Shown here in pieces: positions 4,413 to 10,399 of a stretch of 64,000 bases of DNA. Source of the DNA: the human T2T-CHM13v2.0 reference genome, Homo sapiens. The notes under the pieces are model-generated. The model was not told the DNA's origin, ran no database searches, and saw nothing but the letters and a program-made list of their open reading frames with translations. A program made the translations under genes and the position numbers. The DNA lies in NCBI RefSeq assembly GCF_009914755.1, contig NC_060935.1, one strand, 5' to 3'. Every line of letters begins with the position of its first letter. The stretch's first letter is position 1.

Positions 4413-4988
4413 TCCTCCTCTCTCTTTCTCTCTCTCACATACTCACACCATGCACACACATCACTGAATCTAATAGGATTAAAAATAATCTTTTCCTCTC
4501 TCTTTCTTCAAAACATCTTTAAACCTTTTTCTTTCTTTCCTCAAAGTTCCATTTTAAATATGTTTGTCTTCCCAATCAGATGTCCCTTTTCCCTTCTTTT
4601 GGCAAAAAAAAAACCACTCTTTTAGTGGTTCTAAGATAACTTGTCCCTCCCACACCTGGTGTGGCTGTCAACCATGAGGCCCTGAATCTTCAAACCACAG
4701 AGGTAGGCCCCTGATCCAGGAGAATAAGTCAGTTGGAGGATACCAGTACTCTGGACACAACTAACAGGTAAGTAGAAAAAAATTGGGTCAATCAAAGACA
4801 GTTTTTGTTTCTTTTGAATGGTGTCAAATAGTGACAGAAAAGAAATGAGTAGAAAACTTCTCCTAACTATATTGTCCCAATTTTATTTTCCTTTAATGAG
4901 CTAAAGCTTAAAAGCCAAACCAATACAATAGTCGACCAAAGGTGTTACGTGGATGTTCTTTCCCTACCCACCCCCAAAAAAGGGATTT

Positions 4989-5440
4989 TATCAGTTCAGA
5001 TTAGGTTTGCCTACATGTGTTAGGAAATTTAAAGTAGCAGTAACTTAAACAAGTTGTTTAAACTTTATTTTTCTTTCTTATAAAATGAGTAAGTAAATAG
5101 CCAATGTAGGGCAGATAAGGCTACTATACAGTGACAGGAGCCCGAATGTTTCCCCATAGTACAAAATGACTGCCACTGAATCTACATTTAGGTCACAAAA
5201 AGGAGACAGGTGACAAGAAGAATGCTAACCTAAACATCTAAGGAGACTTCCCAGAAGAACCTCACACATTTTCTTCTTACATTTCAGTACTTTGTCATGT
5301 GGCAACAGCCACGTACAAAGGAGATTGAAAAATGTAGTGTTCTATCTTGGTTGCAATGTGACCAGCTAAAAATGGGGCTTCCATTAAGCAAGAGGAGAAT
5401 GAAAGATGGAATTCCTCTTTAGTAGTATTTGCTACAGAGG
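4989..5440 (-). mobile_element. Old MLT1-type LTR remnant (approximate)
   Basis: Degenerate 'tatcagttcagattaggtttg...aacttaaacaag' and 'tgtcatgtggcaacagcc..acaaaggagattgaaaaatgtagt'. Confidence 0.4.
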
Positions 5441-5628: not shown

Positions 5629-5725
5629 TTCTTTTTTTGTAGGGTAATGATTCCTAGCTCTTCTTTTTTTGTAGTAGTGCTGATCCCTAGCTCTTCTTTA
5701 TTTGTAGTAATACTAATCCCTAGCT
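5629..5725. repeat. Tandem repeat, about 33 bp x3, within MIR/L2-like sequence
   Basis: cttcttttttgtagggtaatgattcctagct / cttctttttttgtagtagtgctgatccctagct / cttctttatttgtagtaatactaatccctagct. Confidence 0.8.
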
Positions 5726-7984
5726 GGTTCGCCATTAAATGCACGCTTCTCTCCCTCCAAAGGAGAAAAGAACTTTTCCTGTCTCATTTACTGCTGTATC
5801 CTCAGGACTTGGAATAATGCCTGCTAATCAGGAGTCACCATATACATATTTTTTAACTTAATTTTGACAACTAAAAATCCTCTTGCGAAGAATATCTAAT
5901 AGCACATAATTTATTTTAAAATATTTAGGATTTATCTAGTTAAAAGCAAGCTAAAAATAACATTTAATATAAAATCCTATAAAAATCTTGTAAAAATATA
6001 TATACCTACATATAAGAAAATGCTGGAAGAGTGTAAACAATGGATTTAGCATAGATTATTTATACAAACAAAATTACATGACAAGAACATGTGTTTTTCT
6101 AGATCCCATTGTCTTATAAAATAAACTATCTGCATTTTTATATTTCAGAATCCTATATATATGGTACAAACATATAAATTTTAAATAGTAGAAAAAAATA
6201 TCTATTTTGATGTATATTACCATTGTTTTCATATGTGAGTAGTGAAATTACATGTGAGTTTTACTTTCTTTGTGTTCTGCTTTCCAAACATTCTCTAATA
6301 ATTTTAGGTCTCTAAAAGTATGTATTTATTGCTTTTCCTAGGCAACAAGAGAAAGTATTTTTTTAATTTAGGCCCATATATTTTATATTCTTATTAGGCC
6401 AAAGACGTTTTGATTCAATTAATACATTAAATTATATAATAATCTTACTAAGTGGAACAATTTTCTCATTTCAAGAAAAATGTTGTTTACTACTTTTAAA
6501 ATATGGTAAAAACTGTGGTTGGAAAAAGTGATTTCTGAAATCTCTAAGAGGGTGCAAAGCCTCTCATCACACTCAGGCTACAGACAGTCTGTTTTCTGTC
6601 AACATCATTAGATTTGCCTTCAACCCATTATTTTTGGCATTGGAATTGCTCAAGTGCAATTCAAGGAGATTGCAGTTACTGACCCATTGTTCTGAGTCCA
6701 GACAAGACCGCTTTCCATCTGAACATGTCTATTGGTCTCTCCTTCAATGAGACACCCATGAAATATTGAGAGCCTTGGGGAAAGTTGAGTGTCCACACAT
6801 ATCATCCCAATGTGTTCCAGGGAAGTTTGTAAACACTGGAGAAGATCTGATAGCACCTGATTCATTCTGAAATTGGGGTTCTGTATGAAGAGTTATTTTA
6901 GATGCACAGGATCAGCTCTGCATCCACTTTTCTGACCAGAAACTCTTCCTTAATTTCAAAGAAACAAAAAGATGCTAAAACTATTTTAAAATTTTGTCTA
7001 TTATATTTCTTTTTCAATTTGGAAACAACAAAAAAGGGTAACATGAAAATAGGCTGTAAATTTTCTGTATTTTAATTTACCTCTAACTTTTCCATACCCA
7101 GTGCCTCTGAATTTTAAAAATTTTTCTATTTTACTATTCACTTTCTTGCATTTTATTTCTAGTTTCTATAATAAGCTATTCCCATTTATTTTTACCTAAA
7201 AGAACTAAGAAAAAAACTAAATATCAACAAATAAAGTAATAGCTGAAATGACTTAAGAGTCAAATACACAGAGAGTCATCTGAAAATTATTGCCAGGATT
7301 TGTCTCTGTATGAAATAGTAAGATTCTAGGGTTTTTATTTTTATTGTTGCTCCTCTTTTCCTTTATATTTTATATTTTCTGTTATAATGATGATTTATTT
7401 TGTTTTTAGAATATAAAAATAAAGAAAATAGGCATAAAATAAATTCAAAGGAATATAAGAAAAAGAATTCCTTTTATTTAAAAAATTATTTTTAAGCAAA
7501 GTAACCTTTTATATTTTCAATTCTGTAGATGGGAATGGGGAACACATGTTTTTTTTCCAATAAATCACTCCTGGTGTGGACATTTACATTATTAAATATA
7601 ACTAGTGTGCTAGTAATAACAGTCGCTAGATGGTTCTAATATTCATTAGACTTTATCATATTCCTAGTAATGAAGATTTTGGGGAGACATATAATTGTTC
7701 TGACTCTGTAGGTAACTAAAAATTTTTATCATTTATAGAAAGATGATGAAATGGAGGTTTTTCCAAAAGTAAGTAGTAAAATAAAAGTCAGATGGAAGCA
7801 TAGAAATATGCCATCCCCTAAATTTTGCAAATGGCTTAGTATCTTGGGATGATGACCAGGAAGTCTAACTATGTCTGGAAGCTTTTCCTTTTATCTACTT
7901 TTTGTTCTTGATGAGAATTAAAATTGTAATTTTCTTTTTAAAAAACTTCTTTTTGGTAATCATCCTCCCCATGGCATCTTTTAC

Positions 7985-9253
7985 TTTTTTTATTATTATT
8001 ATACTTTAAGTTTTAGGGTACATGTGCACAACGTGCAGGTTTGTTACATATGTATACATGTGCCATGTTGGTGTGCTGCACCCAGTAACTCATCATTTAG
8101 GATTAGGTATATCTCTTAATGCTATCCCTCCCCACTCCCCCCACCCCACAACAGGCCCCGGTTTGTGATGTTCCCCTTCCTGTGTCCATGTGTTCTCATT
8201 GTTCAATTCCCACCTATGAGTGAGAACACGCAGTGTTTTGTTTTTGTCCTTGCAATAGTCACTGAGAATGATGGTTTCCAGCTTCATCCATGTTCCTACA
8301 AAGGACATGAACTCTTCATTTTTTGTGGCTGCATAGTATTCCATGGTGTATATGTGCCACATTTTCTTAATCCAGTCTATCATTGTTGGACATTTGGGTT
8401 GGTTCCAAGTCTTTGCTATTGTGAATAGTGCCACAATAAACATACGTGTGCATGTGTCTTTATAGCAGCATGATTTATATTCCTTTGGGTATATACCCAG
8501 TAATGGGATGGCTGGGTCAAATGGTATTTCTAGTTCTAGATCCCTGAGGAATCACCACACTGACTTCCACAATGGTTGAACTAGTTTACAGTCCCACCAA
8601 CAGTGTAAAAGTGTTCCTATTTCTCCACATCCTCTCCAGCACCTGTTGTTTCCTGACTTTTTAATGATTGTCATTCTAACTGGTTTGAGATGATATCTCA
8701 TTGTGGTTTTGATTTGCATTTCCCTGATGGCCAGTGATGATGAGCATTTTTTCATGTGTTTTTTGGCTGCATAAATGTTTTCTTTTGAGAAGTGTCTGTT
8801 CATGTCCTTCACCCACTTTTTGATGGGGTTGTTTGTTTTTTTCTTGTAAATTTGTTTGAATTCATTGTAGATTCTGGATATTAGCCCTTTGTCAGATGAG
8901 TAGATTGCAAAAATTTTCTCCCATTCTGTAGGTTGCCTGTTCACTCTGATGGTAGTTTCTTTTGCTGTGCACAAGCTCTTTAGTTTAATTAGATCCCGTT
9001 TGTCTATTTTGGCTTTTGTTGCCATTGCTTTTAGTGTTTTAGACATGAAGTCCTTGCCCATGCCTATGTCCTGAATGGTATTGCCTAGGTTTTCTTCTAG
9101 GGTTTTTATGGTTTTAGGTCTAACATTTAAGTCTTTAATCCATCTTGAATTAATTTTTGTGTAAAGTGTAAGGAAGGGATCCAGATTCAGCTTTCTACGT
9201 ATGGCTAGCCAGTTTTCCCAGCACCATTTATTAAATAGGGAATCCTTTCCCCA
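7985..9253 (-). mobile_element. 5'-truncated L1PA (about PA3-PA4), ORF2 C-terminus + 3'UTR + A-tail
   Basis: ORF2 peptides at 8552-9061 and 8093-8443; 3'UTR 'ccaacatggcacatgtatacatatgtaacaaacctgcacgttgtgcacatgtaccctaaaacttaaagtataat'; imperfect TSD AAAGAAGTA/AAAAAAGTA. Confidence 0.95.
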
Positions 9254-9255
9254 CT

Positions 9256-9280
9256 TCCCTGGTGGTCTAGTGGCTAGGAT
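9256..9280 (+). pseudogene. tRNA-Glu 5' fragment (nt 1-25) captured at the L1 5' junction, antisense to the L1
   Basis: TCCCTGGTGGTCTAGTGGCTAGGAT equals the first 25 nt of human tRNA-Glu (GGCTAGG variant, recalled as Glu-TTC); bounded by L1 ORF2 on the left and OR coding sequence on the right. Confidence 0.85.
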
Positions 9281-10399
9281 ACTTCTTTATTTATCAAGCT
9301 GTAGATGAGAGGTTTCAACATGGGGATGTACAGAACACCAACACTATTTTATTGAGTTCCGGGTAAAAAGTTGCACCTGGTCGAACGTAGCTAAAGAAGA
9401 GAGACCCATAAAAGATGGAAACAGCTGTTAAGTGTGAAGAGCAGGTGGAAAAAGTTTTGTTCTTCCCATTAGCAGAGCAGATCCTCAGAATGTCAGTAAG
9501 GATGTAAAAATAGGAGATTATAATGGTCAGGCTACTGACAACTAGTACAGCTCCAGCCACAATGAAAACTAACAATTTATTGATCCGGGCGTCAGCACAC
9601 ACGAGAGAAAGAAGGAGAGACATGTCACAGAAGAAATGATTGATAATGTTGGAGTGAAAAAAGGGAAAATGAAAAGCAGCCGTTGTGTGAGTTATGGTGT
9701 TGAAGAAATCAGCTGCATAACGTACAACCACCAGCTGGATGCACAGTCTCTATTACATGGCCACTGAGTACAACAATGGGTTACAGATGGCCACATAATT
9801 GTCATAGGCCATGGAAGCCAAGAGAAGATACTCAATGACTACGAAGAACCCAAAGAACCACTGCTGCAAGGGACAGCCCAGGAAAGAGATGGCTTTCCTT
9901 ACAGCAAATAAGTCAGTGAGCAACTTGTGGCCCACAACGGATGAGAAGCAGATGTCCACAAAGGACAGGTAGCTGAGGACAAAGTACATAGGTGTGTGAA
10001 AGCAGGAATCGAGCCAGATGCGAACCATCATGCCCAAGTTTTCTGTCATAGTAATGAGGTAAAAAAGGTAGAAATGGTAAGAAAAGGAAGACTTGCAGCT
10101 GAAGATGATACCTTAAGCCTACAAAAATGAATTCTGTGATCCTTTTATATTTCCATCAGCCATTGGTTGATTTTAGTCTCTATAGTGAGAAAAATAGAGA
10201 ACTGATCATGCATTCAACTTTGATTTTTTAAAATCATAACATATTGCACAGGAAAAGAAATATAGGTGGAACTAACTTAGAAACATTGATATTTTTTAAA
10301 AAGCCCAAATAAAATGCTAGGACATTAGATATATCACAGTTCTAAAAAATAGTATGGTTTAAGCGTTTTATAGAGAAATTTGGGACTTAACTAAGAAAT

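What the first reader, a model, noticed from the sequence alone, without database searches (positions are those of the whole stretch)
9240..9295. tRNA-Glu 5' fragment captured antisense at the 5' junction of an L1 inside an OR gene
Seen: on the L1 (minus) strand the junction reads OR ...AAT AAA GAA GT|ATCCTAGCCACTAGACCACCAGGGA|AG|TGGGGAAAGGATTCCC (L1 ORF2). The 25-mer is the reverse complement of tRNA-Glu nt 1-25 and stops exactly at the mature tRNA 5' end, followed by 2 extra nt and then L1. Established: the familiar small-RNA/L1 chimeras (for example U6/L1) are co-oriented. Inference: the second-strand target nick primed reverse transcription on a tRNA-Glu or a 5' tRNA fragment, copied it to its 5' end, and was then joined to the L1 cDNA. 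That is twin priming in trans, and it would be a genomic fossil of a tRNA fragment present in a germline L1 RNP. Whether this copy has been described is unknown to me.
Basis: partly seen in the sequence, partly recalled or inferred. Interest (0 to 1): 0.8.

Follow-up and report, generated by a model that had tools for sequence, protein, structure and literature searches.

The report
Backwards tRNA-Glu piece joined to L1
A 25-base copy of the start of a glutamate tRNA sits head-to-head against a truncated L1 retrotransposon inside an olfactory-receptor pseudogene, and it is a real but ordinary extra example of a kind of tRNA/L1 hybrid insertion that was catalogued in print in 2025-2026.

Summary
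Window 9256-9280 (+) is an exact copy of nt 1-25 of tRNA-Glu(TTC). It lies antisense to a 5'-truncated L1 (7992-9253, minus strand) inside OR5G4P, and two bases (9254-9255) separate them. Paralogue alignment shows the target duplication (GT certain, AAAGAAGT/AAAAAAGT likely) brackets tRNA piece plus L1, so one retrotransposition event made both.

A second human locus (chr3, L115) has the same architecture with a perfect 18-bp duplication.

It is not new. Law and Burns (Cell Genomics 2026; bioRxiv 2025) list 21 tRNA/LINE-1 chimeras, 16 of them antisense, and propose twin priming.

This chr11 copy is absent from their readable tables, and its tRNA piece is shorter than any of theirs (25 vs at least 28 nt).

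Two details of the reading weaken:
- The "2 extra nt" are ambiguous. They could be the last two bases of a pre-tRNA leader, L1's own AA with one substitution, or untemplated bases.
- Leader-bearing relatives point to nuclear pre-tRNA templates, not a tRNA fragment carried in an L1 particle.

Verdict: new member of a known kind, modest interest.

The parts
9256..9280 (+). tRNA-Glu(TTC-type) nt 1-25. It ends at the 3' side of the D stem and is antisense to the L1 and to the OR gene.
   Evidence: Exact 25-mer. It has 13 genomic copies, and 8 of the other 12 start ARAGORN tRNA genes.
9254..9255 (.). Ambiguous junction dinucleotide (CT on +, AG on the L1 strand). It may be a pre-tRNA leader remnant, L1 'AA' with one substitution, or untemplated bases.
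   Evidence: 30 of 30 L1 copies read AA here. CT ends the leaders of genes L045, L050, L059 and L078. CT precedes nt 1 in 14 of 59 fragments.
7992..9253 (-). 5'-truncated L1 (3' part of ORF2 plus 3' UTR). It corresponds to about 4775 to the end of a 6.1-kb full-length copy.
   Evidence: L1 reference positions 4775-5272, 95.8%. (92.2-96.3% to 29 of 30 sampled copies over up to 1279 nt).
7983..7991 (-). A7 then GT on the L1 strand: poly(A) remnant plus the 3' copy of the target duplication. The boundary between the two cannot be resolved.
9281..9288 (-). 5' copy of the target duplication (AAAGAAGT on the L1 strand). Its 3'-OH is the inferred primer for the tRNA cDNA.
   Evidence: Paralogues OR5G3 and OR5G5P carry this sequence once, continuous with AAAGAT.
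9281..10209 (-). OR5G4P body upstream of the insertion. It ends ...[15 protein letters not shown].
7898..7984 (-). Displaced C-terminal remainder of OR5G4P (VKDAMGRMITKKK...). It lies beyond the L1.

Best explanation
One L1 retrotransposition event in a primate ancestor split the 3' end of OR5G4P and produced a hybrid insert.

First-strand target-primed reverse transcription copied L1 RNA from its poly(A) tail up to about ORF2 position 4775. On the other DNA strand, the second nick left a 3'-OH ending ...AAAGAAGT. That end was used as a primer on a tRNA-Glu(TTC-type) transcript, starting at nt 25 (the D-stem/anticodon-stem boundary) and running to its 5' end or 2 nt into a 5' leader. The two cDNAs were then joined.

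The result reads, on the L1 strand: target copy, reverse-complement tRNA 1-25, AG, L1, poly(A), target copy.

Shown here: the identities, orientations and order of the parts, and the duplication of at least GT around the whole insert. Inferred: which end primed, the enzyme (ORF2p), and the nature of the template (pre-tRNA, mature tRNA or a 25-nt fragment).
For: - The 25-mer is the tRNA-Glu 5' end.
- The L1 is antisense to it and only 2 nt away.
- OR5G3 and OR5G5P read ...AA(G/A)GA(G/A)GT(G/A)AAAGAT once. OR5G4P has ...AAAGAAGT before the tRNA piece and A7-GT-AAAAGATGCC after the L1 tail. The duplication therefore encloses both parts.
- In tRNA-sense orientation the 3' flank is T-rich (ACTTCTTTATTT). 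Stand-alone tRNA-Glu retrocopies ending at nt 22-25 have A-rich flanks. That difference fits a second-strand nick, not a first-strand one.
- Of 80 tRNA-Glu 5'-end loci examined, only 2 abut an L1 5' end, and both are antisense. The other, L115 on chr3, has a perfect 18-bp duplication GAAAAAGTTGTGGGTACA around reverse-complement tRNA-Glu (about 1-41), a 6-nt reverse-complement leader, L1 2392-6050 and poly(A).
- In print: 21 tRNA/LINE-1 chimeras, 16 of 21 antisense by my count of their table, with tRNA nt 1-3 at the L1 junction, TSDs in 8 of 8 checked cases, and twin priming proposed.
Against: - Only GT is unambiguously duplicated at this locus. The 8-mer matches 7 of 8, and the poly(A) is only about 1-7 nt.
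- There is no microhomology between the primer end (...GAAGT) and tRNA nt 26-30 (TCGGC). Kojima 2010 reports that microhomologies are often seen at 5'-inverted L1 junctions (passages).
- No orthologous empty site could be examined.
- Sequence alone cannot separate priming at the nick from capture of a ready-made tRNA cDNA during end joining.
- The AG dinucleotide is unexplained in three equally workable ways.
Confidence: 0.75

Rival explanations
1. Capture of a pre-made tRNA-Glu cDNA fragment as filler DNA. A short cDNA of the tRNA 5' part, made elsewhere (for example self-primed), was ligated between the target end and the L1 cDNA by end joining. It was not primed from the second-strand nick.
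For: There is zero microhomology at both ends of the 25-mer. [quoted passage not shown]
Against: Random capture predicts both orientations equally. The published class is 16 of 21 antisense, and both tRNA-Glu cases found here are antisense with tRNA nt 1 facing the L1.
Confidence: 0.1
2. Template switching or RNA ligation in the usual U6/L1 manner, but onto an RNA that happened to contain antisense tRNA-Glu sequence, such as a transcript running backwards through a tRNA-Glu gene.
For: Template switching and RtcB ligation are established routes to small-RNA/L1 chimeras (listing; Law and Burns figure 7 legend).
Against: It needs two coincidences. The antisense RNA's 3' end would have to fall within 2 nt of the tRNA 5' boundary, and copying would have to stop at the D-stem boundary. 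The chr3 case ends with a leader, as run-off on a pre-tRNA would.
Confidence: 0.05
3. Two separate insertions: a stand-alone 'tailless' tRNA-Glu retrocopy and an L1 that landed side by side.
For: Stand-alone tRNA-Glu 5' fragments are common. There are 59 distinct fragments among 71 contexts, and 5 of them end at nt 25.
Against: No duplication flanks the tRNA piece alone or the L1 alone, and the GT duplication spans both. The flank polarity is wrong for a first-strand-primed tailless copy. Chance adjacency within 2 nt is very unlikely.
Confidence: 0.05

Closest known systems
Antisense tRNA/LINE-1 chimeric insertions (Law and Burns, Cell Genomics 2026, PMC13174262; bioRxiv 10.1101/2025.02.02.635956)
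   Same: A 3'-truncated tRNA 5' part lies directly 5' of a truncated L1. It is antisense, with tRNA nt 1 at the junction, and both parts sit inside one target duplication. Twin priming is proposed.
   Different: The tRNA part here is 25 nt and ends at the D stem. Their 21 entries span 28-76 nt and mostly end near nt 37. This locus is not in their readable tables. Its duplication is short. No alignment-based dating was done here.
Twin priming / L1 5' inversion (Ostertag and Kazazian 2001; seen only as a reference and through Kojima 2010 passages)
   Same: Two reverse-transcription reactions start from the two ends of the staggered break. The product has an inverted 5' segment inside target duplications.
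   Different: The second template is a tRNA, not the same L1 RNA. No microhomology is visible at the priming site.
Tailless tRNA retropseudogenes (Schmitz et al. 2004, recalled; described in Noll et al. 2015, PMC5322556, passages)
   Same: It is a 5'-complete, 3'-truncated tRNA copy without its own A tail. The truncation lies at a structural boundary. Sister copies carry precursor leaders.
   Different: It has no duplication of its own and no complementarity between target and the tRNA 3' end. It was primed from the opposite (second-strand) nick and is fused to an L1.
U6/L1, U3/L1 and 28S/L1 chimeras
   Same: A small RNA is fused to the 5' end of a truncated L1 in one event.
   Different: Those are co-oriented with L1 and are explained by template switching or RtcB ligation. 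This one is antisense.

Membership tests
Antisense tRNA/LINE-1 chimera (Law and Burns 2026) | tRNA-derived sequence immediately 5' of a LINE-1 fragment | tested here: met
   tRNA 9256-9280 lies 2 nt from the L1 end at 9253.
Antisense tRNA/LINE-1 chimera (Law and Burns 2026) | tRNA antisense to L1, with tRNA nt 1 at the junction | tested here: met
   The L1 reference aligns antisense, and tRNA nt 1 faces the L1.
Antisense tRNA/LINE-1 chimera (Law and Burns 2026) | tRNA part 3'-truncated, typically about half length (1-37) | tested here: met
   It is truncated, but at nt 25. That is shorter than the shortest listed entry, 28 nt.
Antisense tRNA/LINE-1 chimera (Law and Burns 2026) | Target site duplication enclosing both parts, plus poly(A) and an endonuclease-like site | tested here: inconclusive
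   GT is certain, and AAAGAAGT vs AAAAAAGT matches 7 of 8. There is an A7 run. The implied nick CTTT/AT is close to, but not identical with, the consensus, which is recalled.
Antisense tRNA/LINE-1 chimera (Law and Burns 2026) | Contemporaneous arrival of both parts in multi-species alignments | not testable with these tools
   No primate genomes or alignments are held.
Twin priming (classical, in cis) | Inverted 5' segment derived from the same L1 RNA | tested here: not met
   The inverted segment is tRNA-Glu, not L1.
Twin priming (classical, in cis) | Microhomology between the target 3' end and the internal priming site | tested here: not met
   The primer end ...GAAGT does not pair with tRNA nt 26-30, TCGGC.
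Tailless tRNA retropseudogene | Own flanking duplication, with the target complementary to the last 2-18 nt of the copied RNA | tested here: not met
   No duplication encloses the 25-mer alone, and there is no complementarity. The definition comes from Noll 2015 passages.
U6/L1-type template-switch chimera | Small RNA in the same orientation as L1 | tested here: not met
   It is antisense.

The most novel reading that the evidence does not exclude
The templates of these antisense chimeras may be nascent, leader-bearing pre-tRNAs sampled in the nucleus at the integration site. Law and Burns instead suggest tRNA halves made by RNases such as angiogenin, RNase T2 and RNase L. Pieces under about 28 nt, like this one, would then be under-counted by annotation-based catalogues. 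Inverted L1 5' junctions would become a fossil record of Pol III transcripts near germline integration sites, and the nt-25 end would mark a preferred entry point at the D-stem boundary.
Probability: 0.3. Interest if true: 0.45.

Novelty: new member of a known kind. Interest (0 to 1): 0.3.

Why it matters
It adds one unlisted copy, the shortest so far, to a newly described class of L1 by-products. It also shows that a naive reader can recover that class from raw sequence.

The added value lies in two points. First, 25-nt pieces can escape annotation-driven catalogues. Second, leader sequences in sister copies bear on what the template RNA was.

It does not change what is known about how L1 works. 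It has no functional consequence beyond finishing off an olfactory-receptor pseudogene.

Tried and rejected
- **ARAGORN on the window:** 0 genes.
- **Rfam on 9150-9400 at E up to 10:** 0 matches. A 25-nt piece is too short for either tool, so identity was established through genomic copies instead.
- **L1 subfamily:** it could not be told from pairwise identity to 30 sampled copies. Values were 92.2-96.3% for 29 copies and 84.6% for 1, with no separation of the AAGCAA and AAGAAA junction variants.
- **Microhomology readings of the AG junction:** I tried pairing a reverse-complement leader with L1 AAGCAA or AAGAAA. None reproduces the observed sequence without further deletions, so I dropped them.
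- **tRNA-Gly-GCC pilot, to see whether catalogues miss many chimeras:**
  - The 5' 18-mer with up to 1 mismatch gave 54 matches.
  - 31 dispersed loci were examined. 21 chr1 array copies and 2 chr16 copies were left out.
  - 2 of the 31 abut an antisense L1 (L133, L147).
  - Both appear to be the chr5 and chrX rows of the published table. I matched them by chromosome, tRNA type, extent and L1 orientation, not by liftover.
  - Over the two tRNAs, only 1 of 4 antisense chimeras found here is unlisted.
- **Frame check of OR5G3:** one translation was out of frame and was not used.

Full report
**What is there**

On the minus strand the window reads ...AATAAAGAAGT | ATCCTAGCCACTAGACCACCAGGGA | AG | TGGGGAAAGGATTCCC.... 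On the plus strand the 25-mer TCCCTGGTGGTCTAGTGGCTAGGAT occupies 9256-9280, CT occupies 9254-9255, and L1 sequence ends at 9253.

ARAGORN finds no tRNA gene in the window. Rfam finds nothing in 9150-9400. That is expected for a 25-nt piece.

**Is it tRNA-Glu?**

- The 25-mer occurs 13 times in the genome that holds the window. The reversed control occurs 0 times.
- In 8 of the other 12 places it begins at nt 1 of an ARAGORN-called tRNA gene. Seven are tRNA-Glu(TTC) and one is a degenerate 'tta' variant.
- The other 4 places (L006, L010, L011, L012) are dispersed fragments.
- After nt 25 the window (ACTTC) departs from the gene (TCGGC).

The identity and the 1-25 extent are confirmed. Chance is not an issue.

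**The L1**

The 498 nt next to the tRNA piece align antisense to positions 4775-5272 of a full-length L1 copy (L112:498-6600, chosen) at 95.8%. The whole 1279-nt element is 92.2-96.3% identical to 29 of 30 sampled L1 copies and 84.6% to the remaining one.

Its 3' end reads ...GTATAATAATAAT, then A7, then GT, then AAAAGATGCC. I did not classify the subfamily.

**One event or two?**

- The paralogues OR5G3 and OR5G5P in the same window read ...AATAAGGAGGTGAAAGATGC and ...AACAAGGAGGTAAAAGATTC without interruption.
- OR5G4P has ...AATAAAGAAGT before the tRNA piece and A7-GT-AAAAGATGCC after the L1.
- At least GT is therefore duplicated, and probably AAAGAAGT (7 of 8 identical in the 3' copy). The duplication encloses tRNA piece plus L1.
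- The reading frame agrees. It runs ...[15 protein letters not shown] up to the insert and VKDAMGRMITKKK... after it.
- Neither part has a duplication of its own.

The weakness is that the duplication is short, and I had no orthologous empty site.

**A second case that settles the architecture**

I searched the genome for the first 18 nt of the tRNA with up to 1 mismatch. This gave 115 matches against 4 for the control, and 100 places were listed.

I examined 80 loci. Left out were 20 further copies of the chr1 tRNA array and the 15 unlisted places.

Only two loci abut an L1 5' end, and both are antisense: the window and L091 on chr3.

The wider chr3 locus L115 reads, on the L1 strand:
- GAAAAAGTTGTGGGTACA
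- GT plus reverse-complement tRNA-Glu (about nt 1-41, with CpG-type changes)
- AGCCAT
- L1 2392-6050
- poly(A)
- GAAAAAGTTGTGGGTACA

A perfect 18-bp duplication thus brackets tRNA and L1. That is unambiguous evidence for a single event of exactly the kind proposed for the window.

**The background population**

After collapsing near-identical contexts, the 80 instances give 71 contexts: 12 full-length-like copies and 59 fragments. Some 'fragments' are diverged or indel-bearing pseudogenes, because the extension was ungapped.

- Fragment ends cluster at nt 22-25 (27 of 59; 5 at nt 25) and at nt 37 (9 of 59).
- Many have clear duplications. These match what Noll et al. [quoted passage not shown]
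- Several carry 6-8 extra bases between the duplication and tRNA nt 1.
- L010's gtcagct equals the upstream flank of the ARAGORN-called tRNA-Glu(TTC) gene in L078.
- L011's tcatgtct equals the flank of the tRNA-Glu(CTC) gene in L050.

These extra bases are pre-tRNA leaders.

**The 'two extra nucleotides'**

Three readings fit, and I cannot choose between them.

- *Leader remnant.* CT ends the leaders of 4 ARAGORN-called genes (L045, L050, L059, L078). It precedes nt 1 in 14 of 59 fragments and in 4 of 12 full-length-like copies. That compares with 1 in 16 by chance. The chr3 chimera's leader, ATGGCT, also ends in CT.
- *L1 sequence.* 30 of 30 L1 copies read AA before TGGGG (20 AAGCAA, 8 AAGAAA, 1 GGGCAA, 1 AAGTAA). 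AG would then need one A>G change.
- *Untemplated addition.*

The statement that copying stopped exactly at the mature 5' end is therefore not secure.

**Mechanism**

The strand carrying the L1 sense sequence has the target copy ...AAAGAAGT-3' directly continued by the reverse complement of tRNA nt 25 to 1. This is what results if the 3'-OH of the second-strand nick primed reverse transcription on the tRNA.

In tRNA-sense orientation the flank is T-rich, whereas stand-alone nt 22-25 copies have A-rich flanks. This again indicates the second nick rather than the endonuclease nick.

No base pairing is possible between ...GAAGT and tRNA nt 26-30. Entry was therefore either onto the 3' end of a 25-nt RNA or unpaired internal initiation. 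The sequence cannot tell which.

Rivals are less economical. They are capture of a ready-made cDNA, template switching onto an antisense transcript, and two separate insertions. The orientation bias of the class, the 5'-end-at-junction geometry and the spanning duplication all weigh against them.

**Comparison with print**

Law and Burns (Cell Genomics 2026; also bioRxiv 2025) report tRNA/LINE-1 chimeras as a new type. I read the outline, sections 11 and 18, matched passages, and the tRNA sheet of mmc3.xlsx.

- They list 21 chimeras, mostly half-length (1-37) and antisense.
- They found TSDs of 9-19 bp in 8 of 8 cases checked.
- They propose twin priming, and they suggest tRNA halves as templates.
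- By my count of their table, 16 of 21 are antisense, and the shortest tRNA part is 28 nt.
- Their row chr3:191732580-191736229 (L1PA6, tRNA-Glu-GAA 1-51, antisense) matches my L115 by chromosome, L1 length and structure. This is an inference, not a liftover.
- Their only chr11 rows are at 92.0 and 131.7 Mb.
- Searches of the four readable spreadsheets for coordinates starting 5672-5683 found no chr11 entry.
- The PDF supplements could not be read.

The window copy is thus an unlisted member of a published class.

A pilot with tRNA-Gly-GCC found 2 antisense chimeras among 31 loci. Both appear to be in the published table, so under-counting is not general: 1 of 4 is unlisted over the two tRNAs.

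**Verdict**

The mechanism is the best available and matches the published proposal. The claims about an exact mature 5' end and a tRNA fragment inside an L1 particle are not supported by what related copies show.

Novelty: new member of a known kind. Interest is modest.

Noticed in passing
L046, L051, L056, L061, L065, L066, L069, L073, L098, L099, L109: About ten stand-alone tRNA-Glu copies end at nt 20-24 and continue with G-rich then A-rich sequence before their duplication (for example ...TAGG GGGAAATAAA...TAGG GAAAAAGAG...GCT GGGGGAAAAAAA). The gene's 3' end reads ...TCAGGGAA. These may therefore be A-tailed tRNA copies lacking CCA, in which the reverse transcriptase jumped from the 3' acceptor strand to the D arm at the shared AGG. 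I do not know whether this is described.
   Followed up: partly
window 9229-9280 and 7898-7984: The RefSeq span of OR5G4P (9229..10209) includes 52 nt that are really the tRNA piece plus the L1 end. The true C-terminal remainder of the receptor (VKDAMGRMITKKK...) lies about 1.3 kb away, beyond the L1. The repeat mask (7973-9265) stops inside the tRNA piece, so the 25-mer carries no tRNA annotation of its own.
   Followed up: yes
L006 (C1:38981664) and L091/L115 (C3:194428979): Two independent tRNA-Glu(TTC-type) retrocopies share the leader ending TGGCT (gttggct, atggct). No gene among the loci examined has that flank. The source gene may be lost, diverged, or among the places not examined.
   Followed up: partly
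L114 (G000:C1:41858200-41865200), about 2093-2735: One of the L1 copies fetched as a reference candidate has a classical 5' inversion. A 644-nt segment is inverted relative to the rest of the element. It is an ordinary in-cis twin-priming product.
   Followed up: no
L012 (C6:101009629): A stand-alone tRNA-Glu 1-25 copy with an 8-nt leader-like extension (ggtgtgcc) sits in what looks like the A-rich middle of an Alu (label recalled). It has a 14-nt duplication, AAAAAT(G/A)CCAAAAA. It shares the nt-25 end with the window copy and with L010.
   Followed up: no
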